From the NCBI GenBank assembly GCA_034780895.1, contig JAUZTB010000107.1, positions 92,928,510 through 92,992,509 of the forward strand: a DNA stretch of 64,000 bases, read 5' to 3'. The notes beneath the pieces were generated by a model. That model worked only from the letters and a program-made list of their open reading frames with translations. It was not told where the DNA came from and searched no databases. The number at the start of each line of letters is the position of its first letter. The stretch's first letter is position 1. This document shows, piece by piece, positions 2,040 to 57,998 of the stretch. The translations under genes were made by a program, and so were the position numbers. This DNA is from Rhynchobatus australiae (taxonomy: Eukaryota).

Positions 2040-2305
2040 GGTTCCATCACTCTACCATTAACAACTCATTACACAGACCATGAAGCTTAATGTGCTGGTC
2101 ACCACTGCCATTAAACCATTTTGACTCATCCTTTCACATCCTTTGTTCTACACATCTCTCCCCCACCTTCTCTCCTCCTGAAAATTAACTTGCATCTCTC
2201 TCTTTTCAAGTTCCGATAAAGGGTCACAGATCCAAAACATTGACTGCTTTGCTGTCCAAGATGCTGCCTGACCTGCTGAGTTTTTCCAGTATTGTCTGTG
2301 TTTGT
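2040..2305 (+). mobile_element. Penelope-like element (PLE) terminal fragment with decayed hammerhead motif
   Basis: ttccgataaagggtcacagatccaaaacattgactg…gatgctgcctgacctgctgag; same family as the other copies in the window. Confidence 0.6.
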
Positions 2306-2307
2306 TT

Positions 2308-2500
2308 GGTGGAATGTGAGCTGCGAGGAGGATGCTTTATATAAGTTGGGTCAGTAGGCAAATGGATGGCAGAAGCTGTTTTATTTGGATCAATGTAAGA
2401 TTATCCACTTTGGTTCATGAAACAGAAAGACAGGTTATTATCTGAATGGTGACGGATGAGGGAAAGGAAGGTACAATGAGACCCGGGTGATCTTGTAAAC
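2308..2500 (+). mobile_element. CR1-like LINE RT fragment
   Basis: …ttatccactttgg…ttattatctgaatggtga…; parallels the 4344-4440 copy. Confidence 0.65.
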
Positions 2501-3916
2501 TATTCCTCAAGTGGAAGATTTAAAACTCTGAGTCCAGCAGTCTTTCTGTACTTGGATGCAGAGGTGCAGAACAGTGCAGGGGAGCAACTGTAAGTGGCCA
2601 AAAGACAGATACACTGCAACAACAAAGGTGCCAAATTCCTGCCACCACAAAGAGTTCGAGACACAGTGAAGATAAAGCCCACATCCCATATGCCAGAAGA
2701 CAGTGGTGACTTGACACACACCACAATGCAGATTATAACAAGTCACAGGGAGGAGGGTCTCCCATTATCAGGGGACAAGAATCCATCTCTGAAAGGCTAT
2801 GGGAGAGGTTGGCTTGATGTTAGCAAAGATGGAGGTACCAGAAGACACACGACTAATCCTGCCCAGCTGGAACACCACAACCTGAGAACTCAATCAGATC
2901 AGGGAGAGCAGTTCATTGACCCAAAGAACATAATGAGTACATGTTACTTGGCTCAGTGAGTCTGTTTCTTGAATAAAATACTTTTGTTTGTTCGGTTAAA
3001 TAACCAGCTACCCTCTGATATCATAAGGAACAAACGAGAGAAGATACTAAGCCTGAAAGGGTATCAGAGATGTCTTTTGAATCAGAATCAATTTGCATTA
3101 AGGATTTAAAACAGTGATAATAAAAAGGCATGATATGAATGTTGGTTTGATAGATGGGAAGGACACTCTGGAATCCAGAAGGCACCTTGACTTACTGACG
3201 CAGAGCCACTCTCTCACGATTCATTGGCTCTTGATATGCTGCTGAAAGCACAAAAAGCAAATCATTTTGCAAAGCTGAATGCGCAAAGATAAAGCAGAGA
3301 CTGGAGCGTAAAGGGATTCCATCTGATACCATGGTTTGGTCACTGGAAATCTCTTTTTGTTCTTTTTCCAGCCACGGGTCAGAAGGCTCTGCCCGTTCCA
3401 ATCTCTAAATTAAATGATTTCAGTCAAAACAAAAGCTTCAACCCAAGTGACTTTGATTTTACTTTAGAATAAGATCTGTGAACAACAGAAGCCAGATGCA
3501 ACCCAGAAAACAATGCACAGCCTATATCATACAGTGACACATGACTGATGTGTGTGACCATCAACATTTCTTCGACCCTCAGTTTTCAAAGTCCATTTTT
3601 GGGTCTCATGGTGTTGGGAAATGACTTATGGCCATCTATTGTTGGTGTGAACTCATTGTATTAAATACCTTCGACTAATTTTCCCAGATTTCAATTCAAA
3701 ACTCAGCTTCAAAGTCAGAAACTTGGTACCAACCCAACATTAAATCAGCAGGTGAACCCGACATGAGCTAGTAATTCAGTGGGATTTTCCAACATTCTTT
3801 CACTCATGGAAGTACAGTAAAGAACAAAAGTAACTTCTGTCTCACTTTAAACTGATGATGAGTTTCATTAAAAAGGTTTGACAGATATATGCTAAACATA
3901 TACAGTCTATATCCCA

Positions 3917-4335
3917 GAATCATAGAAACTTATAGCACATCAGACAACTATTTGTACTATTGTGTCAATGGCACCTAAGAAAGAGAGCTATTGAGATTAA
4001 TCCCAAGTCCAAGCCCTTGCTCCATAACCTTGTAGGTTACAGCACATCAACTCAGTCAGGTAGCTTTTTAAATATGATGAAGAATTCTGCCTCCGTCATT
4101 CTTTCAGACAGTAAATTACAGACCCCACCATTTTAGTTTGCATTCTATTTCCCTAAACTCTCCTCCAAACTTTCTACCCATTATTTTAAATCAATTCCCA
4201 CAATTTTTTGATCTCTCTGCTTAGGAAAGTGTTATTCTCATAAATCCTTTTCAAACCATTCAAAATTACACACTCCCCAATTAAATCTCTCCTCTGTCTC
4301 CTTTGTTCTTAAGGAAACAACCCCTGCATACCTAA
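3917..4335 (-). mobile_element. CR1-like LINE 3' fragment
   Basis: Starts agaatcatagaaac (reverse CR1 tail) followed by reverse ORF2 C-terminal sequence. Confidence 0.6.
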
Positions 4336-4343
4336 CAATATAA

Positions 4344-5140
4344 AGTTATCCACTTTGAGGTGGAAAACAGGCGGCTGAGTGTTATTTAGATGGTGAGAGA
4401 TTTGGGAAATGTTGATGTACAAGGGGTGTCCTTGTAAACCACTCTCTGAAAGCAAATATGCAGGTGAGAAGCAAAATGGTCTTCATTTCAAATAGCTTTG
4501 TGTACAGGATACCTGTCTATAATTATACAGAGCTTTGGTGAGACCACACCTGAAGTATTGTGTGCCATTTTGGTCTTTTTGCCTTAGAAATTGTGCACTT
4601 GCCATAGACAGAAGCAGTGAAAGTTTACCAGACTAATTCCTGGAATAGCAGAACTGTCATATGAGAAGAGATTGAGTTTGCAAGCCCTGTATGTGTGCAA
4701 GTTTATAAGAATAAGAGGAGACCTTAGTCATACGTACAAAATTCTGNNNNNNNNNNNNNNNNNNNNNNNNNNNNNNNNNNNNNNNNNNNNNNNNNNNNNN
4801 NNNNNNNNNNNNNNNNNNNNNNNNNNNNNNNNNNNNNNNNNNNNNNNNNNNTGAGATATAGCACTGAGATAAGGAGAATTTTTTTTCACTCAGAAGGTGA
4901 GAGGGTGGTGAACCTGTGGAATTATTCTCCATAGAAGGCAGCAAAAGCCATGAAGCTGAATATAATTAAGAAGAAGATAGAAAAACATCTAAACACAAAA
5001 GGCATCAAGGGGTATGGGAAGAAAGCAGGAATATGGTATTAAGATAAATGATGATCCACGATTGCACTGAATGGCAGAACAGTCTGAAGGAGCAAAATGG
5101 CTTACACCTGCTGCTCTATTTCCATGTGTCTATGTTTCTA
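4344..5140 (+). mobile_element. CR1-like LINE 3' ~800 bp, interrupted by gap 4747-4851
   Basis: gctttggtgagaccacacctgaagtattgtgtg (LVRPHLEYC-like), ttcactcagaagg, and a 3' UTR like that at 1-174. Confidence 0.8.
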
Positions 5141-5449
5141 TTTTATTCCTGGGCTGAAATCCTGCACCTTCAACTTATTTTGCTTGCAGCACCTCCAGCT
5201 CAATTTTCAGGTTTTACTCTGGTATCCTGCAATATGTAAGTTCAGCCAGAGCCTGGAAACCACAGTGATTACTGCTGGCCAAAGGCAAACTTCATCATCC
5301 TGTCTCTGATTCATGACAGAGTGTACACTAAACGTGATGGTTCAAACCCCCTCAATGTCCCATTAAAGTTCTGAATGCAGTTGTAGATTCAGGATAGATA
5401 TTAGAGAAAAATGGAAAGGCCACAGTGTTTGAAAATCAAAAAAACTGCA

Positions 5450-5606
5450 GATGCCAAAAATCAGAAACGGAAAACAGAAAATGCAGGAAACACTCAGCAG
5501 GTCAGGCAGCATCTGTGGAAAGAGACATAATGTTAATGTTTCAGGTCAAAAGACCTTTCATCAGAACTGGCTTACTAAATGTTTCCAGCATTTTCTGTTA
5601 TTTTTT
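5450..5606 (-). mobile_element. PLE-derived short fold-back insertion with hammerhead motif (5531-5570)
   Basis: Minus strand: agtt CTGATGA a aggtc tttt gacct GAAAC att aaca. Confidence 0.75.
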
Positions 5607-7865: not shown

Positions 7866-8650
7866 AGAACAAAAGAACATAGGAAAATAAGAAATAGGAG
7901 GTAGTAGCCCATTTGATCCTTTACACCTGCTCTTCTTTCCATCAAGATTATGGTTGTAGCACACAAAAAGCTGGAGGAACTGAGCAGGTCAGACAGCATC
8001 TATGAAGGGAAATGGACAGTCGACGTTTCAGGTCAAGACCCTCCATTGCCCTTCATTCCAGCATCTGCAGTCTCTTGCGTCTCCAAGCTTATGGTTGGTC
8101 TTTTACCCCAGCAACACCTTCCTCTCATTCATCTAAACTCTTGACGCCATTGGCCTCTTTTGCTCAATATCTCCTCATGTGGCAAACCTATCATCCCCGG
8201 ACCCAGACTACTTCATCTTTGACACACTCCCTCTATGGCAAGTATATCCATTATTTAAGCAAGGAAACCAAACTTGTAAAAAATAGCCCATGCAGCCTCA
8301 ACAAGCCCTAATATAATTACAATATTTTTTTTCCTCAGATATGCAAATCCTCTTGTAATAAAGGCCAACATACCATCCGTCTTCTGGATCCCTTGCTGCA
8401 CCTATATGTGACCTTCAGTTACTTATTATAAGGACAACTAGGTCTCTTTGAACATCCAAATTACCTAAATTCTTACAAGTTAAAAACTACTTTGCTTTTC
8501 TATCTTGTGCATAATTGCACATTTTTCCAGGTGTTATTCTATCTGCTATGTTCTTGCCTATTCACACAGCTTGTCCATTTCCCTTTGAACCCTCTGTACA
8601 TCTTCCATCTCTATTCACTGTCCCACTTTGTTTTATAGCATCAACAAACT
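7866..8650 (-). mobile_element. CR1-like LINE fragment interrupted by a PLE insertion
   Basis: agaacaaaagaacataggaa tail; aataaaggccaacataccat; reverse RT sequence. Confidence 0.65.
7957..8083. mobile_element. PLE-derived short fold-back insertion with 14-bp TSD
   Basis: Flanked by caagattatggttg (7943-7956) and caagcttatggttg (8084-8097). Confidence 0.8.
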
Positions 8651-11386: not shown

Positions 11387-11686
11387 TGAGAGAATGTTTA
11401 GCAAACTCACAGAGAACCCAAATGCAGCACAGCAATGCAAGACTGGAGTCAGGATACTTCCTCAGGACAAACACAGGCAGCAACTGGAAGGAATCTTGCC
11501 TCAGAGATCNNNNNNNNNNNNNNNNNNNNNNNNNNNNNNNNNNNNNNNNNNNNNNNNNNNNNNNNNNNNNNNNNNNNNNNNNNNNNNNNNNNNNNNNNNN
11601 NNNNNNNNNTCCAGCATGGAATCCATGTGCTGAACAACAAGGCATTAAAGGAGCCAAATTGAGGGCCAGAACTCAGAACCATGACA
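11387..11686 (-). mobile_element. Solo LTR (Gypsy-like), internal gap
   Basis: Reverse-complement homologue of 17430-17715; TG…TGACA ends; flanks gaag/gagg (4-bp TSD, 1 mismatch). Confidence 0.7.
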
Positions 11687-14600
11687 GAGGGAATCCAAGG
11701 GGAATTTTACCAAACCCCAGGCTTGATTCCTTGTCCAATTTTATGCACCACTAAAATTGGGCAGGTGTATGACTCATGATCCACCTATCCAACTTGTTAG
11801 TTGCCAGCAGTACCCCTACTGGTTATGCACGTAAATGGGGTTTCTGCCTCAATCATTGCAAATTTACAGAGGGAACTCTGAATAAACTTCTGCCCAACAG
11901 ATGTCACCTCAGATTGTAGCTAATTTAAACTACAGTTCATTCAATAAGTGAACTCAAATGTTTATTTTTATATACCAAATGTAGCCAAGGCATTTCCAAT
12001 CCTAGAGCAGATGACAATGTAGCCCACAGAGACAAATAGCTCAATGTTAGCCCACAACTAACTAAACTCGGTCTTTTAATGCTCATTACTCTGACCAATT
12101 AAAGACACAAGCCTAGAAGTTTACTCAATCAATTCCATTAAATGCCCAATGCAGCTGCTTCAGCACATCATATGCTATCTCTGAAATTCATTCTATTATA
12201 ATGTGCCAAGGAGACTCATAAATACATGGAGTGTCAGAGTCATAACCTATGTCGTACTTTATTAGCCGATATTTTTCTCTTATACAATGTGGTTATTCAT
12301 TCATTAATGAGTTCCTGCTCGGCATTAACTGGCTGCTACTCTTCCATAGTAGGCTAGATCACACTGATCCCAGTTTGACCTTTGTGGTCACTGCCCGCGC
12401 AAGTCCCAAGGCCACACTAAATTTTTGCAGCTGTGTGGCTTTGAACACACTGCTGGCATCACTGCGGCAACTGTTCTGTGAGCCACAGTGGGCTGCAAGT
12501 GATGAGTGGACACAGACTGTGGGAACTAAGGCCATGGCCATGGATCATCCTGATGGCTTCTGGTCACAAAAAGTTGAAACAAACATAATACAAATAAAAA
12601 TACACGGATAAGCAATCCATGCCAACCTTGTAATTGAAGGCTGGTGAGCTCATTCAAATGAATTGGCTGTGCTGGTGTATGACTGAACCACCAGGCATGA
12701 TTCAGCTCGGGAATATATTTAACACTCCTGGACTCATTTGTGAAACCATAGTGGAGTGAGGGGTTAGATAAAAATGCCACTGACGTCCAGTGTATTCCAG
12801 GATTCTATGCTACTGCATAGCAAGTTGCAGTTCTCTATGGAAGCACAAGCTGGCTGTCAGTATGTTCTGCCCATTCTGGCTACACAGAGACACACCTCTG
12901 AAGAGCAATGTCCTTCCTGCAAATTGTCCTGTTGTCCTCTCCATTACAAGAATATGTTTCTCTAACATTTCTGACCCACTGACTCTAACATTCTTCTGCT
13001 TGTCTCTATACATTTGTTATCATCTCTTAATGTTGTTGTGCATCTTCAGTATTCTCTTTTTCAACAAACTTCATCCAGATCATATCATGCATCACACAGA
13101 TCTGTATTTGAACTCCCCACAATCAACAGAACAGCTGAGTAATCTCCCTTTATCACTCTTTTTGGCACAGGAACCTTACCAAACTGCTGGTCACATAGCA
13201 ACAATGGCTATCTACATAGAAAACCATTACACACCAATACTATTCACTCATTCTGGAAATGAGCTCCAAACAATAATTGCCTCTTTTCATAAGAAGATAA
13301 CAACACTAGCTGAAGTGTTATCCCAAACCGTCCCTGCATGTATGTAATTGTAATGGTTACAGGCCTCACATATTGCATTGAACAAAAATAAAAGTATTTT
13401 AGAAGTGATTTAATTCCAGCAGTAATTGCAACTGGCTTTAGTTTTTTTCTACATTAGTAGATCAGAAGACATGCCAATAGTTTCCCCCCACTTCAAGAAA
13501 TCCTTTCGTGGTTGGACAAACTTATCTGAAGTTTTGCAGAGCAATTGTTCCACATCCCTTTCTGTGGCATTCATCCAAACTTTCCTTTTTTTCCTTGTTT
13601 TCTTTAAAAGGTGCTTAAAGTATTTGACAACAGTAGCTGAAAAAGCACCAGCTATCACTCAATAGGTCACCAGTATAATGACTGTGTTCCACAGAATAGA
13701 CTATTCAGATAAGCATTAAAGGTGCTGACCTGTCCTTGCCAATACACAACATACCAATATAAATGGTCAAAGACATAAATGTGTGTGNNNNNNNNNNNNN
13801 NNNNNNNNNNNNNNNNNNNNNNNNNNNNNNNNNNNNNNNNNNNNNNNNNNNNNNNNNNNNNNNNNNNNNNNNNNNNNNNNNNNNNNNCAGATACACACAT
13901 GTAGCAAGATTCAAATACTGGCACCTCAATTTCTGTGCACAAGGTGAATCAAGAGAGCTGGGGATAGGTAAGAAAGTGAATAATGCTCAAGTTTGACTTC
14001 AACATTGAAATCAAATAATATTCAACATTGAATGGCAAGAGGTGTTCTATTGTATTACTGCTTTTATTTTTATTTTTGTATGTTATTATTTCACATAAAA
14101 CTAAAATTATGAGTACACATGACTCAGATACAAAAAAGTCTAAATATATACATACAAATAAAGCTCCAAACACACAAAAACATATACAATAATTTCAACT
14201 CTGATCAGACTACTTGGCGTTTATTGAGCCTTCTAATTCTAATTAAAGAGGTTATGAACACAGAAATGGAACTGGTGAATCATGTTAAGCCTGCCAAAGG
14301 ACAAAGGTAGCAGGAGTTTGCTCTGAAGGTGGAAAGGACTTCCCAAAAGGTGGTAAAAATGGGTACCACCTAGCTGGAAAGGCCAATAGCACAGTTGTGG
14401 ATTATAGTAGCAACCTTAAAGTCCATTTTATATGACTGCTGTGGTACTTAGTAGGAGGCTGTTTTCCTGTGAATTTATTCCAAGAGATATGCAGCCAGTT
14501 CTGTCAGCCAGCTGTATCATGCCTTCTGATCGAGGCTCAACGCAGCAGTGAGAAGTGCTACATAAACATCATGTAACTGTGTGATGTTGTCAGCCTGTAA

Positions 14601-14835: not shown

Positions 14836-14993
14836 AGACACAAGAGAGACTGCAGATCCTGGAAATCTGGACAAACACACAAAATGCTGGAGGAACTCAG
14901 CAGGTCAGGCAGCATCCATGGAGGGAAATGAACCGTCGACATTTCAGGCTGAGACCTTTCATCGGGGTCCTGATGAAGGGTCTCAGCCCGAAA
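14836..14993. mobile_element. PLE-derived fold-back insertion with two divergent hammerhead motifs; right arm lost in gap
   Basis: tttcaggctgagacctttcatcgggg|tcctgatgaagggtctcagcccgaaa is an inverted repeat; CTGATGA at 14970-14976 and GAAA at 14990-14993. Confidence 0.8.
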
Positions 14994-15254
14994 NNNNNNN
15001 NNNNNNNNNNNNNNNNNNNNNNNNNNNNNNNNNNNNNNNNNNNNNNNNNNNNNNNNNNNNNNNNNNNNNNNNNNNNNNNNNNNNNNNNNNNNNNNNNNNN
15101 NNNNNNNNNNNNNNNNNTGAAAGACGATGAAACCCTCATGAAAATGTTGAACAAGAGCAGTGGAAATGGAAGACCAAAGATCCATATAAAATCAACATCT
15201 TCAAGAGCATTACACATAAAGAATTTCTCTGAAATGTTCTCTGAAGTGCCAGCC

Positions 15255-17715: not shown

Positions 17716-17811
17716 CCCCCCTCCCCACCTTTCCTTTTAGGAGTTGTCTAGTCACTGCTTGATATACTAAACCTTGAAAGCAGGAAGTGGTGGCTGGAGG
17801 ACAAATTTTGA

Positions 17812-19190: not shown

Positions 19191-19849
19191 TTATAGCAAG
19201 TAGGTAGAATGCTTATCAATTGGTCAGTAACCAAAAACATAGAATTAGATAGGCAAAAGGACCTGAGGGTGGATGAGGAGAAATCTGTTGTCATAACCCA
19301 ATAGAAATATATTAGTAATTCACCTGCAAGTAATTTCTGAATGCTGGAAGCTGTTCACTGCTAGGTGCTAAGTGCTTCGTCATTTGTGTCTGATTGGAAG
19401 AGGGTTCTAGCAAGAGTTGAATGCTAATTTGGCTGCCCTCGTATCAATTCAGCATTGCTTGCTGACCAACATCATAACCTGCCTCCTTTATATGTATTCC
19501 TGTTTATCAATATGGTGGTCCAGTGCCATTTACCATATAAATGTGCACAGATCAAATGCGACTTTGGAACTAATTCAAAGGCTCAAATTACATGCCAAGG
19601 CACTGGATTACATGTCTNNNNNNNNNNNNNNNNNNNNNNNNNNNNNNNNNNNNNNNNNNNNNNNNNNNNNNNNNNNNNNNNNNNNNNNNNNNNNNNNNNN
19701 NNNNNNNNNNNNNNNNNNNNNNNNNNNNNNNNNNNNNNNNNNNNNNNNNNNNNNNNNNNNNNNNNNNNNNNNNNNNNNNNNNNNNNNNNNNNNNNNNNNN
19801 NNNNNNNNNNNNNNNNNNNNNNNNNNNNNNNNNNNNNNNNNNNNNNNNN

Positions 19850-20650
19850 GACTGCCAATGTTGGAATCTGGAGCAAAAAACAAACTGCTGGAGGAACTCA
19901 GTGGGTCAGGCAGCATCTGTGGAGGGAAATGGACAGTCAACATTTCAGGCTGAGGCCCTTCATCTGGAAGGGACCAAGACCCTCTGTTGAAAGTATCCTG
20001 ACTAGTTGCATCATGGTCTGAAACTACAATTCGAAGGCACAGGAATGTAAGAAGCTGCAGGGTGTAGTGGACTCAGCCCAATACATCTCGGGTACATAAC
20101 GCCCCATCATCAGTGGTATCTACAGAAGGTGCTGCCTCAAAAAGACAACATCTATCATCAAAGGTCCCCACCATCTGGACCATGACATCTTCTCACCATC
20201 GCTACCATTGAGCACAGGTACAGAAACATGAATTCCCACACCACCAGGTTCAAGATCAGCTACTTCCTTTCAAACATCTACATTCAGTTCTTGAACCAGC
20301 CTGCACAACTCTAATCACTACCTCAGTATGGCAACACTATGTGTATGGACTTTGGTTTTTGTTCTAATTGTATTCATGCTTGTATAATTTTGTATAATTT
20401 ATTTTTCTCTTGTAAATGTTGTGTATAGTATCTGATGCTATGTGCCTGTGATGCTGCTGCAAGTAAGTTTTTTGTAGTACCTGCACATACATGTACTTGT
20501 GAATATGACAATAAACTCGACTTTGAACTTCGACCTTGAAGGGTCTTAACCCGAAATCCATTGCCCTCCACAGATGCTGCCTGACCCACTGAATTCCTCC
20601 AACAGTTTGTTTTTTTGAACATGACCTTAGCATCCTTCTCCTGTCTCAAT
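19850..20650. mobile_element. PLE fold-back element (arms ~19850-19966 and ~20538-20650) split by a LINE
   Basis: caaactgctggaggaactcagtgggtcaggcagcatctgtggaggg versus ccctccacagatgctgcctgacccactgaattcctccaacagtttg (inverted). Confidence 0.75.
19973..20537 (+). mobile_element. Rex1/Babar-like LINE 3' fragment
   Basis: Encodes SVESILTSCIMV…KKLQGVVDSAQYI; ends with aataaa plus a short tandem tail; gaaggg on both flanks. Confidence 0.7.
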
Positions 20651-21345: not shown

Positions 21346-22424
21346 ATCCTGTGAAAGGCCCATTTGTATATTTAAGAACACTTAAATAATTGTATAATTT
21401 TAATAATCATTTAATTTTGCTGCCATGTAATCAAGGCTGCAGTTAGCGTAACTTCCTGCATGAAATTTCTAACCAATGAGCCTGAATGGGTGTATTTTGT
21501 GCTAAGCAGCAGAAAGCTGCAAAATATATTGACCTTTTCCTTCCTCCCTTCTTTAAAGATCACGTTGTTATCTTTTTAACTTTCAACAGGTTTATTTCCA
21601 CTCTAATACTCAGTCGTCCTACGCTCAGTGGCCTGCTACTTGGCAAATGCTTCGAATTGAGTTTGCTATCACTGGGCACAGCTAGACCCTGGTTGCTGTT
21701 GAGTTCCTTCGTAGCAAATTCACAAGATTCCTCTTTTATTGAAGTGGTTTGTACAAAGCAGGGCCTGAAAAATCTCTTGCCAAAGCATCCAGTCAACTTT
21801 CCAAACATCCTGTTTTTACTACATTAGGTTCATTATTATGTAGCTTTCAAGCTTATTTATCACAAGGCTAGGTAGTGCCGAGGGAATCCCTCAAAGTATT
21901 TGCATGGTCAACTGACTATATACTTGTGTGTGTACTTCTGTTTTACTAAGAAAAGCAATGAAGAGTCTCAAAAGAATCTGCTCTCTTTTACAGAATGCTG
22001 CATTTAAGAAGCAGGGTCTGTTTGGAGATAAGGATTAATTTACTTACTTTGCCTGTAGTTCTGAAATTATAAGCACACAGAGGAGATATCTTTGATGTAA
22101 AGGAATATTTCCCTTCCCATTTTCAAAATCATAATTTGTTTAATAATCCAGAGAGGGTTGGCTTCATGTCCACTTCTTCATATTGTTGTTAAATCTCACA
22201 GGTGTCCTTTGTGATTTTAAGCATTCCTTAAAGCAATTGTTCTGGCACCTACACAGACCATTTGGCCCATCAGTCTATGCAAGAAGAGGTGGCATTATAG
22301 ACTGCAGAAACTTGGGATGGTTTCAAGGGCTCTTAGATTCTATTATTCACTCTTCTGAACTATTTCAGTTTGACTAGGAAAGGGGCTAAAGCTCATTGGC
22401 AACTATAAATGCAAAGACTTACAA

Positions 22425-22602
22425 AATGGAGCAATAAACAATCTGCTAGAGGAACTCAGCAGATCGAGCAGCATCTGGTCCTGCTGTAGGTTTTTGACCC
22501 AAAATGTCAACAATTCCTTCCCCCCCACCACAGATGCTGCTCATTTCTGCTGAGTTCCTCCAGCAGATCGTGTTTTTTTTTTCTCCAGATCCCAGCATCT
22601 GC
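22425..22602. mobile_element. PLE-derived fold-back insertion, decayed hammerhead
   Basis: ctgctagaggaactcagcaga…gagcagcatctg versus cagatgctgctc…tctgctgagttcctccagcag. Confidence 0.7.
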
Positions 22603-22904
22603 GGGCGTTCAATTTTGTGGGTGCTCGGAGATAGCAGAATATTTCCTCATGTTTACCAAGTCTGACTTTTGATCTAAGTNNNNNNNNNNNNNNNNNNNNN
22701 NNNNNNNNNNNNNNNNNNNNNNNNNNNNNNNNNNNNNNNNNNNNNNNNNNNNNNNNNNNNNNNNNNNNNNNNTATGGAAGCAAGCCCTGAGATTATGACA
22801 ACCAACCAAGAATACATTTACATTAAACCTCTGTAAATTACTTCCTATATTCTAACTAACTGTTCCCCCCACCCCAACCCCACCACCACCACAACTAGAT
22901 TTTG

Positions 22905-30704: not shown

Positions 30705-31460
30705 GGAAGCCTTTCCTTTATTAGCCGAGGCACAGAATATAAGAACTGGAAGACTGCCTACAACATTAATTGGAATACAGCTTGTGTACTGCACACAGCT
30801 CTGGTCACCATATTATGGGACAGATGTAATTTCACAGGAAAGAGCGAGGAAGGAATTTACGAGGATGTTGACAGGATTGGAAAACTACAGTCTGCCAAGG
30901 AAAGATAGGATAAATTTGGATTGAAAACCAAAAACACTGCAGACGTTGAAAAACTGAAATAAAAACGGCTCTGACGAAAGGCCTGGGACCTGAAATGTTA
31001 ACTGTTTCTCTTTGCACAGATGTTGCCTGACCTGTAGTGTGCTTACTGCATTTTCTGCTTTCGGATAAATTAGGGCTGTTTTCTTTGAAACAGAGGAAGC
31101 TGAGGGGAGATGTAACTGATGAGTCTAAAACAATAAGGGAGAAAGATAGAATAAATAAGAAGAGCCTAATTCCCTTAAATAGGTGGGGTCATAAACCAAG
31201 GAGCTAGGATTAGGATAATTGGTTAAAGGGGAAATAGCATTTGGTTTGTTCAGAGAGTGGTACGGGTCTGGAAATCAGTGCCTGAAAGAACGACAGGGTC
31301 AGAAGCCCTCACCACATGCGAGAAGTAATTAGATGTTTCTTTGAAGAACCACTGTCTGGGCCAAAGAACTGAATGCTGGTCGATGGGATCAGGCTGGTTT
31401 GCTCTTCTTTTCACTAGCACAAAAACATGGGCCAAATTCCTCCTCTTTTGATTTTATGAC
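30705..31460 (+). mobile_element. CR1-like LINE 3' fragment interrupted by a PLE insertion
   Basis: ORF 30688..30924 QLVYCTQLWSPYY…FTRMLTGLENYS. Confidence 0.8.
30924..31062. mobile_element. PLE-derived insertion with hammerhead motif (CTGACGA 30971-30977) and TSD
   Basis: ggataaatt at 30908-30916 and 31063-31071; ctgacgaaaggcctgggacctgaaatgttaact. Confidence 0.75.
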
Positions 31461-37703: not shown

Positions 37704-38435
37704 CTGAAGATAAGGGAGACTGCAGATCCTGGAATGTGGAACAACAAACAGAACAGTGGGTCAAGCAGCATCTGTGATGGCAAAAGATGTAAGCTGACAT
37801 TTCATGTTGAGCCCCTGCATCAGGACTGAGAGGGAAGAGGAAAGATTGTCATTATGTAGCAGTATGTGGATGGAGGCAGGGGGGTGGGCAGAAACTGGTA
37901 GGTGATAGGTGGAACCAGATGGGGAGGAAATGATGGGCAGATGGAACCAGGTGGGAGAGGGGGAGTGAGGAGGGGATGGAATGGGAAAGGTGAACAAAGG
38001 AAGAAGAAAACTCAGTGGGCAGGTGATGTGTGTGGGAGAAAAACACTGCGGATGTGGCTTACCTGAAATTGGAAAATTCAGTGTTCAAATGTTGGATATT
38101 TCAAGCTTGTGAACATGGTACTTTTCAATTTCAGGTAACCCAGAGCCATAGTGTTCTTCTCCCATTCTACTCACCTGAGTAGTTTCGTCCTCATTTTGTT
38201 CACCTTTCTCTCCCTCCCCCACCTGGTTCTATCTGCTCATCATCCTCTCTCCATCTAGTTCCACCTGTCACCTACTAGTCTCTGCCCCACCCCTCCCTCA
38301 TACTGCTAGGTACAGGCAACCTTTCCTCTTCCCTCTCAGTTTTGACACAGGTTCTTGACCCGAAACGTCAACTTACACCTTTTGCTTCCACAGATGCTGC
38401 TTGACCCACTGAGTTTTTCCAGTGTTCGGTTTTTA
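37704..38435. mobile_element. ~730-bp palindromic (fold-back) PLE remnant with 12-bp TSD
   Basis: Arms inverted about ~38090; ttacctgaaattggaaaattcagtgttca versus tgaacatggtacttttcaatttcaggtaa; TSD aatttgagatca/aatatgagatca. Confidence 0.8.
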
Positions 38436-40573
38436 AATATGAGATCAATACTTACTCTGTATTTCCTTTCACTCAATTATAGTCTGTATCTCTTTCTCAC
38501 AAGGGGTCTTCAAGAGAAAAAAATCTTGTTTTGCTTTTTTTCTATATTTCCTTGAGGTGAATGCTGAACAATTTCTTAGAGACATCCACCGATATTTCAA
38601 TGCTGTTTCTAAGCCCCTGCAGATCTCTAAAATGAGTAAATAGGAAATATTGCTGCCTACATTTATTAGCAGAATAGCTTCAACATGTTAATATTAGTTC
38701 AGTTCTGTGAAGAATATTATTTTTAAATCTTTCCATTGTTGAACAAATTACATGAAACATTATTTACAGTAAAATATTTGTCACAACTGAATACAGAATT
38801 ACAACTTCTTTTATTATTCAGATGGACAGAAGCATTACTACACATTAAGAAATATGTTTTATGTGCAAGAATGAATGCATATAGTCATCCACAGTATTTA
38901 CACAATGCGACAGAATGAACCCCTAAGACTTTGGCTGCTCACCGTTGAGGTTTTAAAATGTTTAGCCCTGGTCATTGTTATTTATACATAGCATTTCCCT
39001 AGTGATAAACAAGACACTATTTTCCCATGCCATACTCAGGGACACTCCCAAGATAGCCAGACTTCATGTCTAGACTAGAGCATTTTCTTGACCTACCATG
39101 TGGGCAGCTGGTCTGGCCAGATTATTCCATCATTGAGTTTTATTAACTATGTTTATCTGTTTTTATTAGATAATAGATCAAGTGGGTGTTTTGGGAAATT
39201 GAAATTGTTTGTGCTATCTGACTGATCTGGAACTCCTTCTTTTCTCCCCTAAAGACAGGTTTTAGGCAATAATAATTCAGTTTTCCAAAAAAAATTAATT
39301 CAATAGAAGTTAAGTCATGCTACATATTAGCTGAAGAAGGGTGGGAGGATATCCATATAGAGCATAATCACTAGCATAGACCTATTAGGCCAAGTGGTCT
39401 ATTTTTGCATTATGAATACTTCTTAATACACCCCTCATTGCAAAGACTTCATGTGAATGTTTGAGCCCTGCCCTGACATTACATCATACAATGTTAACTT
39501 CCAACACCTTACGTTGACTCAACTTCTAACAATTCACTAGTACTCCTGAACTAATGGCAAGGGAGCTTCAAGGTGAGGCAACCTACATCAGAAAAACTCG
39601 CACAGTGGTTGTGAACAAAGTAAGCTTTATTTGAGAGAACCTGAAGAAAGAAAACAGGAAAAATTCAGAGCAAGTGCAAATTTACTAGCCCCATTCCAAG
39701 CAATCAGACTCAAGGCCTGCTTACATTTCCGTGCAGTAATTATGCCTCATCTCCCTCCATTTACAATAGCTAATGCACCATGCACAGTTTCCACCTGGAC
39801 TAGCTCCATGCACTTAACATTCGACTCTCCAGAAAATCCTCTTCCTGTCACCTTGACACTTTTTCAGGAACTAAGCTGCTTCACCCTGGATATCACTTTG
39901 ATAACAAGCTTGCATTGAGTACACACATTAAAAAGATGTCAGTAACGAAAGCCTATTTTTTTCCACAGACAGTTTTCATGCTATACATTGATTGATACAT
40001 TGAAGTGAATCGCATAGATTCCATTGTATACGTTCTGAGAAGCAGTAGATTATTTGTGTTCCAGGACATGTACAATGTCAAAGTGCAATGAAGTGCTTGC
40101 ACACTTTCATAAATGGCATCAGAAATAGAGTGGATTATTATCAGCTGCAGCACTCATGTTGCCAACTGAATCAGGTTCTATCAGATAGGGAGGCAGTAGA
40201 ATGTAAGTTATAGTGTGAACACTCTATGAAAGGGCAAAATATTTGCATTGCTTAAATGGGTTTTCTTGGTTATGCTACATAACCTGGAGCTATAATCTTT
40301 CTCCAGAAATTTTACCTATGATGCTTACCAGTTACTTTATCATTTATTGGATTACAATTGGAACCAATAAATTCTGACACCAGAGATGTGCTACCCAATG
40401 TCCTTTTGACTCATTGAGTGTACGTTTTCTGTGGTACCAGTTGAGCACCTTCGCATTATTTCTCTCTTCCCAAATGACATCTGCACATGCAATGAAAAAC
40501 AGATGTAGACTGTATCCTACTTGGCTCAATATAATATCCTGGATCACAAATTAACTTAAGGGCTTGTATTCCC

Positions 40574-40672
40574 ATTCTGATAAGGGTCCCAGAACTGAAA
40601 TGTTAACAGTTTCTCTTTCCACAGATGCTGCCTGACCTGCTGAGTATTTCCGGCATTTTTTGTTTTACTTTC
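40574..40672 (+). mobile_element. PLE terminal fragment, decayed hammerhead
   Basis: ttctgataagggtcccagaactgaaatgttaacag…cagatgctgcctgacctgctgag. Confidence 0.7.
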
Positions 40673-42180: not shown

Positions 42181-43812
42181 CCTAAATGCTCTTCTCTCCA
42201 TTTTATATAGTGGTTTCCAGAAGATTATATAATTTCAAGAGACTTCAAGAGATTTCAAGAGACAATCATGGATGGTTGGTGAACAGTACTGTATAAACCA
42301 GATATATCTCTAAACATTACAAGGAAATGGGTATTTTTTGCAATCCTTGGATAGGATTTTACAGACAGCATGAGTTATCTGAAATTAGAGTGGTTCTCTT
42401 TATTCCCTGGTGCCTCTTTTTCCATCTATCTTGTACTTTTATATAAATGGGAATTTGCAGGGGTGTTTCTTCTTCCCACTTAAATCCCATAAGAATGCTT
42501 TTATAAACCCTGGCTGTTTAGTTCATCACTATTATTAGGAAATAGACAGTAATCCAATTGTTTAATTGCACCTAATGGGAATCTGATTTGTTTCATTTGC
42601 TTGAACAAGGTTAAGCTATCCAAATATATAAAATGTGGATATTGTTTATTTAATCTGACCACAGGATATATCAGCATATTCTCCACTTAAAAAAAGAATC
42701 TATCTATTCAGTTTCATCTTGCCTTAACAATATTTGACATGACAAGAATAACTCCAACTAAAAAAAAGTTAGACTTATTTCTGATTGAATCTTAATGCTG
42801 ATTTAATTCTAAATGAATTCCTGATCCAGCTATGGATTTCCTTAAGGATTTGCAGAAAAGACTTGAAATATCATGAAAATCAAGGCACAGACAGCACAGG
42901 AACAGGAATGCATTAAAGATAAACATGAATTGACGACATGGTGATCCAGTCCATTGGTATACCAATGTCCATGACATGGTTTGGAAGGAAACACATTTAC
43001 TTCTGTGACTCTCTGCTTGGGAACCTTTATGACTTTATTTGTTTTGTTGCGGTTGAGGGAAGAAGCTTCTAAGCAGTGGCTGACCACTTCCCTGTTGGAT
43101 AGGATGGTGATTCTGTATCATCCCAGGACTCTCTTCTGCACCTCATAGTAGTTTACTTTGGGAATGGAACATATCTATTGGTGGTAAAGATAAAGAGCCT
43201 TGTTCTCCATTTTGAAAGTTAAAATTTAAAAAATTAGCTCCATTGAGGTTTGCAATGCTTTCTCTTCTTTTATTCCTCATTGGTACCTTGCTTCTCTACA
43301 GATGAGTAAAAGAAAATGTGAATGTGAGTTGAATTCAGGTGCTCATGTTAATTCAAGACATTCAGTTCTACTTTTAGAGTTGTCATAGGACTAATACATC
43401 AAAGATTCTCTTCTCATACTTGTTGTGTGGCTGTAACAGGGAGAAATTATGAAATTCCATTAAAGGTGCCAATGCAAATAACAATGAACCCTGGTTGCTG
43501 CACATAGCTTATTGGAATATATTACATGCCACCACATAATATCCTCTACTTTGGAAAACAGAAGATCGTTCTTTCCTTCAGAGTATAATTTAGGTTATAA
43601 TCTAGGACACAAATTCAACAAACAACTAAAGGAAAGGCACTCAGCACCAATAGTAAGTGCATTTACAGGGACAGGAAATTTACTACCTACTTGAAATGGC
43701 AAAACAGCAAAGATTCTGTTCCTGGAATAATATTCAATATAAAATTGACCTCTCAAGCTGGTCTCTGCTTCTGAAAAGACTGCATGCCACAAAAGATCTC
43801 TCATTTGCTTTC

Positions 43813-44003
43813 ACACACAAAATGCTGGAGGAACTCAGCAGGTCAGGCAGCATCTATGGAGGGAAATAAACAGTCGACGTTTCGGATCAAGACCCAGCCC
43901 ATCCACTGTTTATTTCCCTTCATAAATGTTGCCTGACCTGTTGAGTTCCTCCAGCATTTTGTGTGTGTTGCTCCAGATTCCAGCATCTGCAGAATATCTT
44001 GTG
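43813..44003. mobile_element. PLE-derived fold-back insertion, ~60-bp high-identity arms, TSD
   Basis: acacacaaaatgctggaggaactcagcaggtcaggcagcat… versus …atgttgcctgacctgttgagttcctccagcattttgtgtgt; flanks tctcatttgctttc/tctcattaactttc. Confidence 0.8.
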
Positions 44004-50675: not shown

Positions 50676-51097
50676 TTTTCCATAACCATTTCTGCTCTTA
50701 TAGCCATGATGCTGGACCTTTCTGTAAATCTGTCAGCTACTTCATTATCTGTACAATTTGTTCAATCCATAACGAAGATATCAGGGACAGGCTTCACAGC
50801 CTAGTCAAGCCAAAATATGAGTCATTGGGTGCTTATTACAAGCAAGACAAAATCAACAGCAGGAAGTAAATTCAAAACACACAACATCACATTTTAAGAG
50901 ATTTTTAAATATATATTTTCATCACCTGTAATGTTTAAGCATTTCAAAGTTACATCAGTAATTACTTAACGTGTGCATAAATGTTTACAGAAAAGGCACA
51001 ACAGGGCAAACAGTATCTGTGGAGAAAGAAACAAAGTTGTAGCCCAATGGCCTTTCAGCAGAAGAGTGATCAGAAAGGAAAACAAACTAAAATCTCT

Positions 51098-51101
<4 letters not shown>

Positions 51102-51169
<68 letters not shown>
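51102..51169. repeat. (TC)n microsatellite abutting a PLE fragment (~51170-51260)
   Basis: Direct reading. Confidence 0.95.
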
Positions 51170-51173
<4 letters not shown>

Positions 51174-54100
51174 CATAAATGTTGCTGGAGCAGCTGAATA
51201 TTTGCTGCATTCTCTGTTTTCACTTCAGATTTTTAGCATCTGCTCTGTTTTGGTTTTGGATTTCTTTTAACCTATTTTCATTTTCAAGAAAATTAAAAAG
51301 TGAAAATTAATTTTATGGCTCAAACCAAAGGATAAAATATCAGTTTCAATGTGGCATGCCCTACTACCAGTGAACAGAAAAGGGAAAAAAAAAGTTTGGG
51401 AAGGTCCATTCATGCCCTCAATCCCTGGTCTTGTTATCCAAATCTGTGGGGTCAAGGGAAAAGATGATAATTGAAGAGCCACTGGCAAACTTGGGCTCCT
51501 CTCTGATTCCTCTCCATTGTCTAAATGAGAGGAACCCAAAATGCCACATTTGCCAAGCTAGCAATGGTGCCACTCTCTCGATTCAGAGTAAAGATGAAAC
51601 AGTTGCAATGTAGCTGTATCATGGGCCACATGCAGTCCATGCTAACATTTTGGAAGGTGTGACTCTGATACCAGCCTTGCCCTCAGGTAGTCTGTAAATG
51701 TGCCCATGTTGGCAAGGAATACACCCAGGCAAACCTAAGTCTGGCTCCCAGATGCAAAGTTTGCAGTTTAGGAAATGCTCACCCCCTGCTGTTGATGTGT
51801 TTGTAAATACTCTCCACCAAACCATCCTGGCCACCTTACATCAAAGTTTGCCTCCAGTGCTGGAATGCACTGGAAAAATTTGCAGCCATTCCATTGTATT
51901 CCTGCCAAGGTTTGTCTGAGAATTCACTGGGATGTGTGGACCAAAAACTAAAGACTGTTGCTTGTAGTCTGAGCACATGCAGTTCCTTGTAGGTAAATCA
52001 AGATTATCTCTGCTGGTGTTCAGACAATTTCTGCTGCACTGTACACTTCACATCTGGATGAATGAACTTTGGCTTTTATAATTGTTAAGTGGGTCATTAA
52101 CTCTTTAAAGAGCATTAAAGGGTCATTATTTATGGCGCATCATCATTGGCTGCTATCTTTCCATTACTGCTAATGAAACCCACTTCCTTGGGACATCCAC
52201 GTTTCAATATGTGCATTCCACTGTTTCATTAATATTGGACATGACATCTTCATTTCTCACTTCTTAAGAAAAATAAGTACCTGCTTACTGAACTATTTTG
52301 CTTTCTTAAAGAGGAAAGANNNNNNNNNNNNNNNNTCAGGAGCTTTACCTCATTGCTTAATATGTGCTATGAAAATTTGCTGAATCTTCATTTCCAAAGA
52401 CAAATAATTTGAGTCAAGGGTTAATTAGTTCAAGTGGAGTAGAAACACCGGCAGAGATTGGTTGGGCCAAATGGCCTGCTTTTATGTTGCATATTTTATG
52501 TGATTCTATGCTAGAATACCCTGCATATCCTGCACATATTGCAACAATGCATGTATTAATCAGGTAATAGCCTGTCTCAAGAGAAAGTTAGACTTTCACT
52601 TAGCTCTGTAGCAATGCATTAATTCAATCTGTGGCCCTCTACATTACATGTGGTTACCTTATACAAACTAGTATAAGTAATAAGTACTTCATTTTCTGAT
52701 TATAGTTACAACTTATGATGAAACACATTTCAATTTTCCCTACATTTCTGAATCCCCCATATAGTGATTTAAAAATGAACAATATATTTGTTCACTAACA
52801 TGTTGGTACAGAAAAATAATCTTTACAACAGTCTTGCAAATCACAGAGCCATTTATTTGCATTCTGGCTGTATTGAAAATTTATCCATTGGATGTCATAT
52901 GACTGACACTCAGGTCAGTCAGCAGAATCTGCTTGAAATAAAGCAAACCAACTGAAGCTCCATAGGTTACATTCCAATATCCAACCACTCAATTACTTCC
53001 TCACAAACCCATGTAAAGTTTACAATAGAAATATTGGCCGAGCTTTTGTGGTGGTAATGACAATGAAAACATAGGCATCACCACCATTACTCTGAGACTG
53101 GCAGGAACTTGGGGATTTCTACACTCGTAGGTTAGCACAGAAATCCCAAAGTTGGTTTCAGCAATTCAGCCGTCCTTCATCGGTTGTGTTGTTTGCATTC
53201 TTGTCCAATCAAATGATGTGAATCACTTGAATTGGCATGAATGTAAGCTATCTCCAAACTAGTGTTGTTGAAATACCCTGAACGTCTTATACTTGTTTGC
53301 ATGAGATTTTAATATAATACAAAGCCATAATTACTGCTTACTGAATTCCTTGGTCCTATATATTGCAACTGTCTCATATGTGGTCCAAAATATAATAGAA
53401 ATATTATTTTAGGAAGTTTTTAATGAGATTTCAGCATCTACATCATATTTGTTTTCCAATATTTGTTTAGCATTGTGTAGAACTGCTTAGACAAAATGTC
53501 GAGCTCACCTTAGGCCTAAAAATAGGAAAGCTGACCACTCATCCTGTTTATTTTGAGTGAAGTGACCCAAAATTGAGCCAATCTTGACTTAAATCCATTC
53601 TTGTATTTAAATAATAATTTTACTCTTATTTAATTAGACTACTTTACACTAGTTTAAAAGACTATCAGAATATTTATCTTCACCACAAACTGACACAGAC
53701 GTATTCCTGTAGAACTGAGGCAAATTTTCAGTCTCCCACTCCCTGTTCCAAGACATCAGTCTAAGAGAAGGGAAATCACCCACAGTGATCCACGAGGTAC
53801 TGGTTACCTGTCCACTGCATGAATAGTGCTAGCTGTCACTTCTCTATATTGCCACTTGTAGACACTAAACTCTAAAATATCTGGATCACCATAGTCTGAT
53901 TTCAGTACTGACACGTTATAAAGTATAAAACTTTTATGCTAAAAATCTGTAGTCGTAAACATGCCACGATATCTGGTCCAATTAATCCATTATTGAATAT
54001 ATGCAAAAATAATTATATTTTAGAAGCTGAGCTGACATCCTGTATTACATTGACTGCCTTAGATCAGAATCTATATTATCATTGCACTTCACTCTTACTC

Positions 54101-54437: not shown

Positions 54438-54564
54438 AAAACAGCTGCAGATGCTGGAAATCTGAAATAAAAACAGAAAATGTTGGAAATACTCAGCAGA
54501 TCAGGATTCATCTGTGGGAAGAGAAATATAGTTAATGTTTGCGGGTGAAGACCCTTCATCAGAA
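54438..54564 (-). mobile_element. PLE terminal fragment with hammerhead motif (1-nt insertion in GAAA)
   Basis: Minus strand: ttCTGATGAagggtcttcacccGcAAACattaact. Confidence 0.75.
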
Positions 54565-54774
54565 AAGACAATGTTTTTTCCAAAGACTGAGCATAGCTCA
54601 GATATAAAAGCCCTGCACAACAAGGATTGTTCTAAATGAACTCACTTGACTAATTGGCTTGGCTAATAATTTGTGTACCATAATCAACCATTTGGAGATC
54701 TCCTTCCAAGAACTGTGTGCATAGTCTAAGGAGGCACCTGGTTCTTCACTGGATACAAATGTATGATGAGCTAA

Positions 54775-54970
54775 GGTGTTTGGATGAGAGGTTAAATCCA
54801 TGGCTGTTTTTTTCGCGTGGACGTAAAAATTCCCATGGCACTGCTTGGAGGGTGAACAGAGAGTTATCTCCAGTGTCTTGACCAATATCCACCCCTTATA
54901 ATCAACGTCTCTGAAAAATTAGTGCTCCATTTGGTCGCTGCCTTTCCTGCATTCCAGCAGTGACTATACT
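54775..54970 (+). mobile_element. DeuSINE-like internal fragment
   Basis: gtggacgtaaaaattcccatggcact…ccagtgtcttgaccaatat…cagtgactatact. Confidence 0.6.
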
Positions 54971-57850
54971 GCATGGGGGCGTCTGGGGGCGGCTATAGCA
55001 AGCTAAGGATTCATGTAGCTAGATGGAGGTCTCTTCTTTATTGGTTGGCTTCGGGTTGTCTTTGCATAAAACAGAAAAATAACGGCAGATGGGTGGAGGA
55101 AACCATCAAACCCCGATCCACCAATAACTTCCGTCGACGGACTATCACTTTATTCTGATTTTCAAGAACCGAATTTTTTTTTCAGGCTTCCCAGTCAGTT
55201 GAATTTTGTTTTAAGTTGAAATATCAACCCTACTCTCTGCTGAACTGCTGTAATTTCTTGGTCAGAGGTTAGGAGAAGCAATGATGGATGTATATTAAAA
55301 AAATAAACACACATGTAGTGGGCGCACTATCAGAGTATTGACCCATTTATGTTTAACGTCGTTCGCGTTTCTTCGAAGGCCACTATCTGGTAAATGGGTT
55401 ATTTTCGCCATCATTCAGAGGGCCCGCGTTACTTTCACCTTACGCGGTTTATTGTTTAACAAGAATCATATTGCAAGGAAAACAAATTACCGCTAAATTA
55501 CAGTACAATGCCAAAATGAACCGATGCGACCCAAAAACTGGTAAATTTGGTGAAACCTCGCATATGGTAAAAACTTAATTGTTACTGTTTTTCATCTTTA
55601 GTAAACCGCATTTGCTAACACGTTGGGAGTTCCATTGTAAGGCTTAGGGGAAAAAAAAGTATGCCTTCTGAGATTTTCTTCGGATAAGAATGAGAAATAA
55701 GGAATGTGGTACATGGTAACCGCAGGAACCGGACCTTATTCACACCTTTCACCCCAAGCGCACATGTGATCAGTGAGATGGGGGGTGTCCGACTTTGCAA
55801 ACTTTAACTGTAGCGGGGGCTTGATGGTTAATGTTTTAGTTGCGCGCCTGGAGTTGCCTTTGATGGTGGAAGGTGATTCTAATGATGTAAAGGCAGGTTT
55901 ATAATGGCCCGGGTATGGTGCGCTTTCAGAGCCATGTAGACCAGGGATCTGTGAGGCACCTCTCTCCCTGAGGGTCACATCGCCGCGGTGATTTACACTC
56001 AACTCACTTGTTTTAGTTTCGAGTTACCAAATTATGATTGGTTATCATATCACAAGCCTGCACTCATAAGGGTCCATATTGTGTTCATGTTCCGCAGCGC
56101 CCCCAACCCCCTACCAACCTTGCCTGAAGGTGTACAGCTGTACAATATGCCCGCTGCTGTGATGTATAGCTGCGAGGGTCGCCGCCTTTGAGGTCATCAT
56201 AATGAGATGCTGTGGCTTCTAAAGGAGGTGAAATAATTTTAAACACAGACACACAATGAGTTTATTTATTTAGAAAGCAGTTAAAAGTAGTCTGGGGATT
56301 GGAATATTCAGTGTTGACATTGTACAGAACTGGCTTCACGCCAGGGTAAGTCTCAAGGGGGGGGGGGGGGAACAGTGGACCAGGCATTCAGACCCTTGTC
56401 CTTCNNNNNNNNNNNNNAATAAGAACCATTAACGGGAGGGGGATTTCGGATGAATCGCGATGGTTCTTTGCACCATCGAACCGGACGATGAAGCCGGTTA
56501 GCAGTCGGTTTACCGGAGGGGAAACAAGTCATCCTCCATCCCGGGGGATTGTCTGGGAAGAAGTATTAGGTCGTGTTCTGACAGATGTGATCCAGTAAAC
56601 TGTAAACTGGAGCTGGACCGATTATTTAAAGTCGGGCTCGGAGATGGAGATACTTTTCATAACTTGTTTGAGACAATTTGGGTTTTTTTTCCCCCCTTTC
56701 TCTTTGTGTCGCACATTTTAGTTAGCGGTAGGTCAGGGGACAAACTCGCCACTCCATTCCCTTTCCAAAAACAAAGTTGAGCTTGATCTCAAAGAGTCTC
56801 TGCGGAGCTGCCAACACAATCCAAATCACCCGGTTTCACAACACCTCCAGAATCCTACTTAGGTTTAAATGTTCCCAAGTTTATCTCCGCTGTTCCTGCA
56901 ACCACGGTTTTAACTCTGAAGACTGTCTCCTTTAAATTACCTGTTTCCTCTGTCAGCTACCACATATCTGCATCATCCCCAATCCTTAAGATTGTGGAAG
57001 CATTGCTGTTGAGGAAGGATCTCAGTAATATCCCACTGTCTTTGTAGGTGATTTTTTTTTTAGCCTTCACGGCATTAAATGATATTTGCAAAGCACCGGC
57101 GTCCCTTCGCCAGATGCTGCAGATGTTAATGAAAAAATAGTAAAGTCCAAGTGCAGAATGTTTAAGGCCAAGGTGAAGTGACAACTTAACAGCCCTCTCT
57201 GTGTGGGAAAATAAGGTGGAAAGTTGAATTTGAAATCAACTCATCGCCTGGAGCACCCTGACTGAAAGTGACCTAACACTCAACAGTCAGAGGGAGATAA
57301 TGAGATATAAGCACGGGGAAAGAGTTATAAGAAAACCAGTCGGTCAGAGAAAAAAAACGAGAGAATCGAACGGACAAAAAAAATAGGCATGCATCTCCTT
57401 AAAAAAATGACAATTTCTCAAACTCGTCTTTAAGTTGGTGGATAAAAGAACGTGCGAACAGTTGGCAGATTATTCTAGGCATTCTTTTTCCATAACTTTA
57501 CCGTCAACCGAGTATTTCATTCTGAGGCTTCTTTTTTTGATTTGCTTTAAGAAGGGCTTACTAATTGTATGAAATCTTGCAGCCTGCTGATTGAGATCAA
57601 ATCTGTTGTTGTGTCTTCTATCCTCTGCACCTTTTTAACTCTGCAGAAATGACTCACTTTCCTTAACTCTATACTTTTCTGTATGTTTGCTTTCTTTTTC
57701 CCATGATGGATTTTTAGTAAATCTTGCCTTTTGAAGCTAAACTTATCAGCCTGCAATACATATATAATTTTTAATTATTCCTGTTTTTTGTTTGAATGTG
57801 GGTCAGTCTTTTTTAGCCTACAACCTTCTGGTACCTGTCCTTCAAGCTTA

Positions 57851-57998
57851 AAATAAAAGCAGAGAACTCTGGAAATACTCAGTAGGTCAGGCAGTATCTG
57901 CAGAGAGAGAAACAGAATTGACGTTTCGGGTCAATGACTTTTCATCAGCGTTCATTTAATGTTTTTATTTCAGATTTCCAACATTTTAGTGTTTTGCT
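57851..57998. mobile_element. PLE-derived fold-back insertion; hammerhead motif on the minus strand (57915-57953)
   Basis: Minus strand: CTGATGAaaagtcattgacccGAAACGTC. Confidence 0.75.

What the first reader, a model, noticed from the sequence alone, without database searches (positions are those of the whole stretch)
2200..57998. About a dozen Penelope-type minimal hammerhead ribozyme motifs scattered through MECOM intron 1
Seen: the most frequent repeat carries the pattern stemI-CTGANGA-a-stemII-GAAAC-GTC/GTT-stemI. Examples are 5531-5570(-), 14966-14993(+), 30967-31003(+), 54531-54564(-) and 57915-57953(-), with decayed copies at ~2210, 8020, 19935, 22480, 37800, 38340, 40577 and 43872. 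Known: Penelope-like elements encode minimal type-I hammerheads whose stem III is reduced to a palindrome (here ACGT) and which are thought to cleave as dimers. Inference: this giant pre-mRNA contains many potential self-cleavage modules. Every MECOM-sense (minus) copy I could read has a lesion: CCGATGA, CAGATGA, CTGATGC, GcAAA, lost stem-II closing pairs, ACAT for ACGT, or truncation. That could reflect purging of active ribozymes from a dosage-sensitive gene, but most antisense copies are decayed as well.
Basis: partly seen in the sequence, partly recalled or inferred. Interest (0 to 1): 0.7.

Follow-up and report, generated by a model that had tools for sequence, protein, structure and literature searches.

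The report
Decayed Penelope hammerheads in MECOM intron
The small self-cutting-RNA motifs are real, but they are worn tail ends of a known, very abundant jumping gene, lie equally on both strands and have decayed equally, so they are likely inert debris rather than ribozymes purged from this gene.

Summary
Observation confirmed; selection idea not supported. The window holds 19 copies (10 sense, 9 antisense) of a repeat with the published minimal type-I hammerhead layout, inside a ~255 kb MECOM intron 1. It is the 3' end of a Penelope-like retrotransposon: 15 of 30 loci picked by its GIY-YIG remnant carry the motif 211-479 nt downstream on the same strand, and window copies at 37717-38444 keep the ORF tail. 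Across MECOM and 16 other large genes, 132 copies are sense and 142 antisense; complete cores are 3 of 76 versus 2 of 63, matching independent decay (4.8 expected, 5 seen). The only complete core in MECOM is a sense copy, with broken stems. Most 'lesions' are CpG decay; CTGATGC is a subfamily character (173 otherwise perfect copies genome-wide versus 673 canonical) and CAGATGA probably too. 112 of 274 copies sit in head-to-head pairs. Cleavage was not tested; power for the few intact copies is low. This scan reported the same family on other DNA of this genome. Verdict: new member of a known kind, low interest; the CUGAUGCA subfamilies are the one loose end.

The parts
61876..61912 (-). MECOM coding exon 1 (ATG to GT donor); intron 1 runs from 61875 beyond the window start, about 255 kb
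   Evidence: sequence; exon 2
57841..57951 (-). Sense copy, complete core and ACGT palindrome, but two mismatches at the base of stem II and stem I lost by 5' truncation
54443..54569 (-). Sense copy; C inserted in GAAA, ACAT (CpG decay), stem I lost
50999..51244 (.). Head-to-head pair of decayed fragments (50999-51069 -, 51160-51244 +) around a (CT)n run
43812..43995 (.). Head-to-head pair (43812-43895 -, 43901-43995 +), 5' core missing
40569..40669 (+). Antisense copy, decayed core
37717..38444 (.). Inverted pair of longer PLE 3' ends: each arm has the last codons and stop of the GIY-YIG ORF (near 38056-38140), a pyrimidine-rich UTR and a hammerhead of the CUGAUGCA subfamily
30966..31062 (+). 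Antisense copy, CTGACGA and GAAA intact, ATGT (CpG decay)
22408..22605 (.). Head-to-head pair, decayed
19849..20622 (.). Sense copy with CAGATGA and ATGT (19849-19968 -) and an inverted fragment (20537-20622 +)
14846..14994 (.). Head-to-head pair with the turn at the hammerhead; the sense core is predicted to be locked in a hairpin (-48.5 kcal/mol, z -3.9)
7956..8046 (-). Sense copy truncated inside the 5' core
5441..5571 (-). Best-preserved sense copy: 5' core, 5-bp stem II and GAAA intact; ACAT for ACGT; 3-bp stem I
2199..2305 (+). Antisense copy, decayed

Best explanation
These are 5'-truncated 3' ends of an abundant Penelope-like retrotransposon family whose terminal repeat carries a minimal type-I hammerhead, and the copies in MECOM are likely inert, neutrally decaying debris. 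Shown: linkage to a GIY-YIG (and, in some loci, RT) remnant; hammerhead layout; equal numbers and equal decay on both strands; frequent head-to-head pairs. Inferred: the motif served the element's own RNA (as a dimer through the ACGU palindrome, from the literature); reverse transcription from about 95 nt downstream of the motif usually stopped or switched template early, which left short single or inverted copies; after insertion methylated CpGs in the core (C15.2-G16.2, C11.1-G12, in some subfamilies N7-G8) decayed fast and disabled nearly all copies whatever their strand. A lone copy would not cleave without a partner, so there was probably little for selection to purge.
For: Linkage: of 30 loci chosen by the GIY-YIG remnant protein, 16 have the repeat on the same strand within 600 nt, 15 at 211-479 nt (L092 at 64 nt is a separate insert); many misses run into N or a contig end. 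L087 and L095 hold RT remnant, GIY-YIG remnant and motif in order. 9 of 28 loci chosen by window 38095-38420 have the GIY-YIG remnant. First-look candidates for that protein: 35,860. Strand: 113 sense/123 antisense in 976 kb of 16 other genes, 19/19 in the MECOM stretch (19/17 in intron 1); sense share 0.48, CI 0.42-0.54; unpaired copies 76/86. Integrity in the 139 of 274 copies that cover the core: no feature differs (Fisher p 0.09-1.0); complete core 3 of 76 vs 2 of 63. CpG at 15.2/16.2: CG 28, CA 47, TG 32, TA 14, other 18 of 139; seven non-CpG core positions mismatch 8.7% vs 11.5% at downstream control positions; independent decay predicts 4.8 complete cores, 5 seen. Monomers did not cleave and dimers cleaved weakly in vitro for a Schistosoma min-HHR (PMC4209133).
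Against: Only 5 complete cores were sampled, so purging limited to that class is not excluded. CTGANGA is slightly rarer in sense copies (20 of 75 vs 23 of 61, p 0.20) and CAG-core copies commoner (10 of 75 vs 4 of 61, p 0.26; 7 vs 1 in a stricter subset). Covariation on single copies is weak (score 0.233 vs shuffled 0.216; 28 of 500 shuffles reach it). No full-length element of this family with both terminal repeats was recovered. The control genes are EPH/kinase and laminin-G genes with strand assigned from flanking exons, not a genome annotation. The last 185 kb of MECOM intron 1 is poor in copies (9 per 100 kb vs 24 in other genes), though on both strands. A 2026 preprint reports Xenopus retrozymes depleted from introns (strand not tested there).
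Confidence: 0.88

Rival explanations
1. Active sense-strand hammerheads were purged from MECOM (or from introns in general), leaving only damaged sense copies.
For: No sense copy in the window is fully competent. Small, non-significant deficit of CTGANGA in sense copies. Low copy density in most of intron 1.
Against: No antisense copy is competent either; 19/17 in intron 1; the only complete core in MECOM is sense; two of three complete cores with good stems in control genes' sense strand sit in one EPH intron (L194); decay matches CpG and independent mutation.
Confidence: 0.07
2. Distant sense copies would pair into a working double hammerhead: the intact core of 5441-5571 (ACAU) could use the GUU site and stem-I strand of 19849-19968 (AUGU), 14 kb away, and cut the pre-mRNA.
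For: By eye: ACAU/AUGU are complementary (4 bp) and the arms give 5 bp with a closing G-U.
Against: ACAT and ATGT are the two products of one CpG decay and make up 79 of 139 copies, so such matches are expected; nine base pairs across 14 kb; even adjacent dimers were weak in vitro.
Confidence: 0.03
3. The motif is a chance resemblance in a SINE-like repeat unrelated to PLEs.
For: Rfam finds no hammerhead; single copies do not fold better than shuffles; weak copy-level covariation.
Against: Fixed position behind GIY-YIG remnants with the Cys linker; exact fit to the published min-HHR consensus; compensatory U-A/C-G and A-U/G-C pairs between subfamilies.
Confidence: 0.02

Closest known systems
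Minimal hammerheads (min-HHR) in pLTRs of metazoan Penelope-like elements (Cervera and de la Pena 2014, PMC4209133; read: parts 1-3 of 4 of the text, supplement file 2 part 2 of 3)
   Same: U-rich flank, short stem I, CUGANGA plus one extra nucleotide, stem II, GAAA-C-G-U-H; mostly single truncated motifs, some as close opposite-strand pairs; thousands per genome.
   Different: No shark or ray row in the part of the alignment read; stem II here is 4-5 bp; subfamilies with CUGAUGCA (and probably CAGAUGA) cores, absent from that alignment; copy number far higher.
Neptune-type EN+ PLEs (Craig et al. 2021, PMC8557442; read: 12 passages)
   Same: C-terminal GIY-YIG, Cys-rich linker between RT and EN, heavy 5' truncation, inverted truncated copy at the 5' end.
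   Different: Clade not tested by a tree; Nematis shares the linker; no intact element of this family recovered.
Animal non-LTR retrozymes (bioRxiv 10.64898/2026.07.22.740005; read: parts 1-3 of 5)
   Same: Type-I hammerheads derived from PLE pLTRs, reported in one chondrichthyan.
   Different: Retrozymes are tandem arrays; these are dispersed monomers or inverted pairs (only 20 same-strand neighbours within 700 nt vs 68 opposite).
Conserved intronic hammerheads of amniotes (RECK, C10orf118; PMC3088659 passages)
   Same: Intronic type-I hammerheads in vertebrate genes.
   Different: Those are single-copy, conserved and active as monomers; these are repetitive, minimal and decayed.

Membership tests
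PLE min-HHR | Core CUGANGA-H ... GAAA-N-N-U-H in type-I order | tested here: met
   Majority sequence of subfamily clusters 1, 3 and 4; 673 exact intact copies genome-wide, 0 for the reversed pattern
PLE min-HHR | Palindromic 15.1-16.1 (ACGU) in place of stem III | tested here: met
   ACGT with CA/TG decay products
PLE min-HHR | Stems I and II with compensatory changes | tested here: inconclusive
   76% of cells paired, far above slid controls; 11 and 10 double changes at 2.1-1.1 and 10.1-11.1, which track subfamilies; shuffle control marginal
PLE min-HHR | Located in the terminal repeat behind a PLE RT/GIY-YIG ORF | tested here: met
   15 of 30 GIY-YIG loci at 211-479 nt; RT remnant in L087, L095; ORF tail in the window
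PLE min-HHR | Self-cleavage as a dimer | not testable with these tools
   Needs in vitro assay
Neptune-type PLE | CX2-5CxxC linker before GIY-YIG | tested here: met
   11 of 33 decayed loci match the pattern, 10 convincingly
Neptune-type PLE | RT groups with Neptune in a tree | not tested
   No reference set at hand; only weak tblastn matches (26-31% identity) to an intact PLE ORF of the same genome
Non-LTR retrozyme | Tandem units each with a hammerhead | tested here: not met
   No such array in the window; neighbours mostly inverted
Host-selected intronic ribozymes | Strand bias in number or integrity | tested here: not met

The most novel reading that the evidence does not exclude
Whole subfamilies of this element spread with a core that breaks the hammerhead consensus (CUGAUGCA; 173 otherwise perfect copies against 673 canonical; 25 of 32 and 17 of 24 copies in two clusters defined outside the core, linked to GIY-YIG tails). 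Either C is tolerated between G8 and A9 as a new active natural core, or hammerhead catalysis is dispensable in cis for Penelope retrotransposition, which would bear directly on the open question of what PLE hammerheads are for.
Probability: 0.4. Interest if true: 0.45.

Novelty: new member of a known kind. Interest (0 to 1): 0.2.

Why it matters
As a MECOM feature it matters little: it is ordinary transposon debris at the density seen in other large genes. The negative result is of modest use: hundreds of thousands of minimal hammerhead motifs appear to be tolerated on the sense strand of introns, in line with a motif that is inactive alone. The subfamily-level core variant offers a cheap natural test of whether PLE hammerheads must cleave.

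Tried and rejected
Rfam scan: no hammerhead at E<=5. RVT_1 genome search returned 150 other RTs and was not used for linkage. PR-domain family search missed MECOM; exon 2 was found by fetching the next 200 kb. Pfam GIY-YIG search gave mostly a different, intact PLE family; Pfam does not recognise the decayed remnants. Looked for a peak of 5' ends at the predicted cleavage site: none (1, 1, 1, 3, 4 copies at model positions 60-64; most ends lie at or upstream of the 5' core, partly a limit of the profile). Sequencing runs: no RNA holder listed; no read comparison with a related organism was obtained, so age and conservation of single copies stay open. Lunse et al. 2017 on PLE hammerhead dimers is not held (seen only as a reference and in a review's passage) and may already list core variants; so may supplements not seen (file 1 and parts 1 and 3 of file 2 of PMC4209133; the preprint's tables). 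Literature searches (listings only) showed no title or abstract start on strand bias of PLE hammerheads or on CUGAUGC cores. Rows dropped before integrity counts: 135 of 274 hits that do not cover the core.

Full report
Observation. Every cited position lies in a copy of one repeat of about 130 nt. A profile built from 96 copies outside MECOM finds 19 copies in the window, 10 on the MECOM-sense (minus) strand and 9 antisense; reversed sequence gives none. The host is MECOM: a short coding exon at 61912-61876 and a PR-domain exon about 255 kb downstream that is closer to the MECOM chain than to PRDM16 over the shared stretch. That the genome is a shark or ray comes from earlier scan notes and my recall; I did not test it.

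What the repeat is. Subfamily majority sequences read stem I, CUGAUGA, one extra A, a 4-5 bp stem II, GAAAC-GU-C/U, stem I, the layout published for PLE minimal hammerheads. Two pairs change on both sides between subfamilies (2.1-1.1 U-A/C-G, 10.1-11.1 A-U/G-C); on single copies the covariation is only marginal against shuffles. The inverted pair at 37717-38444 keeps the last codons of an ORF; its genomic relatives continue upstream into a GIY-YIG remnant (9 of 28 loci). In the other direction, 15 of 30 loci chosen by that protein carry the repeat 211-479 nt downstream on the same strand, and two of these also hold RT remnants. A Cys linker of Neptune/Nematis type is visible in 10 of 33 decayed loci (definition). 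The family is huge: 35,860 first-look candidates for the endonuclease remnant, 24 copies per 100 kb in sampled introns, which extrapolates roughly to a few hundred thousand, and 673 exact intact motifs. No full-length element was recovered.

Strand test. I fetched the rest of intron 1 and 120 stretches of 10 kb lying between exons of 16 large genes, 60 on each contig strand. Counts: 113 sense/123 antisense outside MECOM, 19/19 in the MECOM stretch (two antisense hits lie beyond exon 2). Because 112 of 274 hits are in head-to-head pairs, which force balance, I repeated it on the 162 unpaired hits: 76/86. In the 139 hits covering the core no feature differed; complete cores were 3 of 76 sense and 2 of 63 antisense, and the single one in MECOM is sense. 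Against my reading: CTGANGA is a little rarer and the CAG core a little commoner in sense copies (p 0.20 and 0.26), and five complete cores give little power for that class.

Why copies are damaged. The palindrome holds a CpG, retained in 28 of 139 copies and changed to CA in 47, TG in 32; G12 and G8 show the same G-to-A excess; non-CpG core positions decay like control positions; independent decay predicts 4.8 complete cores and 5 are seen. CTGATGC is not a lesion of one copy but the majority state of two clusters defined outside the core, with 173 otherwise perfect copies genome-wide. CAGATGA is concentrated in one cluster (10 of 17 such copies) and is probably also inherited.

Mechanism. 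From the literature, such motifs act, weakly, as dimers in the element's own RNA, and monomers do not cleave. The copies end about 95 nt behind the motif and are 5'-truncated or inverted, as described for PLEs. In the pre-mRNA, six of ten sense copies in the window have an inverted partner within 700 nt; the pair at 14846-14994 is predicted to lock the core in a hairpin. None has core, palindrome and both stems. The inference is inert debris; cleavage was not measured and no RNA run was listed.

Comparison and verdict. Membership among PLE minimal hammerheads is met for core, palindrome and position; covariation is inconclusive; activity is untested. It is not a tandem retrozyme and shows no sign of host selection. 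Earlier notes of this scan reached the same identification on other DNA; they are not independent evidence. New here are the negative strand test and the CUGAUGCA subfamilies, which are absent from the part of the published alignment I read and from the core variants in the passages read in PMC3088659, but the most relevant paper was not held. Interest 0.2; new member of a known kind.

Noticed in passing
L070 (G000:C21803) and L071 (G000:C48128): A different PLE family with intact RT + GIY-YIG frames of at least 595 aa, followed by degenerate telomere-like (TAACCC-type) repeats; L070 has its own intact-looking minimal hammerhead about 1.2 kb behind the stop. On small contigs; possibly young or foreign.
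   Followed up: partly
L256:1500-1690: A hammerhead-starting fragment of about 150 nt inserted into the GIY-YIG tail of another copy, with an apparent 14-nt target-site duplication (read by eye).
   Followed up: no
G000:C107:92735650-92928509 (rest of MECOM intron 1): Only 17 copies in 185 kb (9 per 100 kb) against 32 per 100 kb in the window and 24 in other genes; both strands alike.
   Followed up: partly
window 11512-11691 and 17425-17604: Inverted repeat of 180 nt, 97% complementary, 5.7 kb apart, overlapping N runs.
   Followed up: no
window 61433-61475 and 61576-61618: 43-nt duplicate flanking a 100-N gap just inside intron 1; probably an assembly overlap.
   Followed up: no
L194:3462-3593 and 4953-5091: Two sense copies with complete cores 1.5 kb apart in one EPH-receptor intron; the best natural dimer candidate seen.
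   Followed up: no
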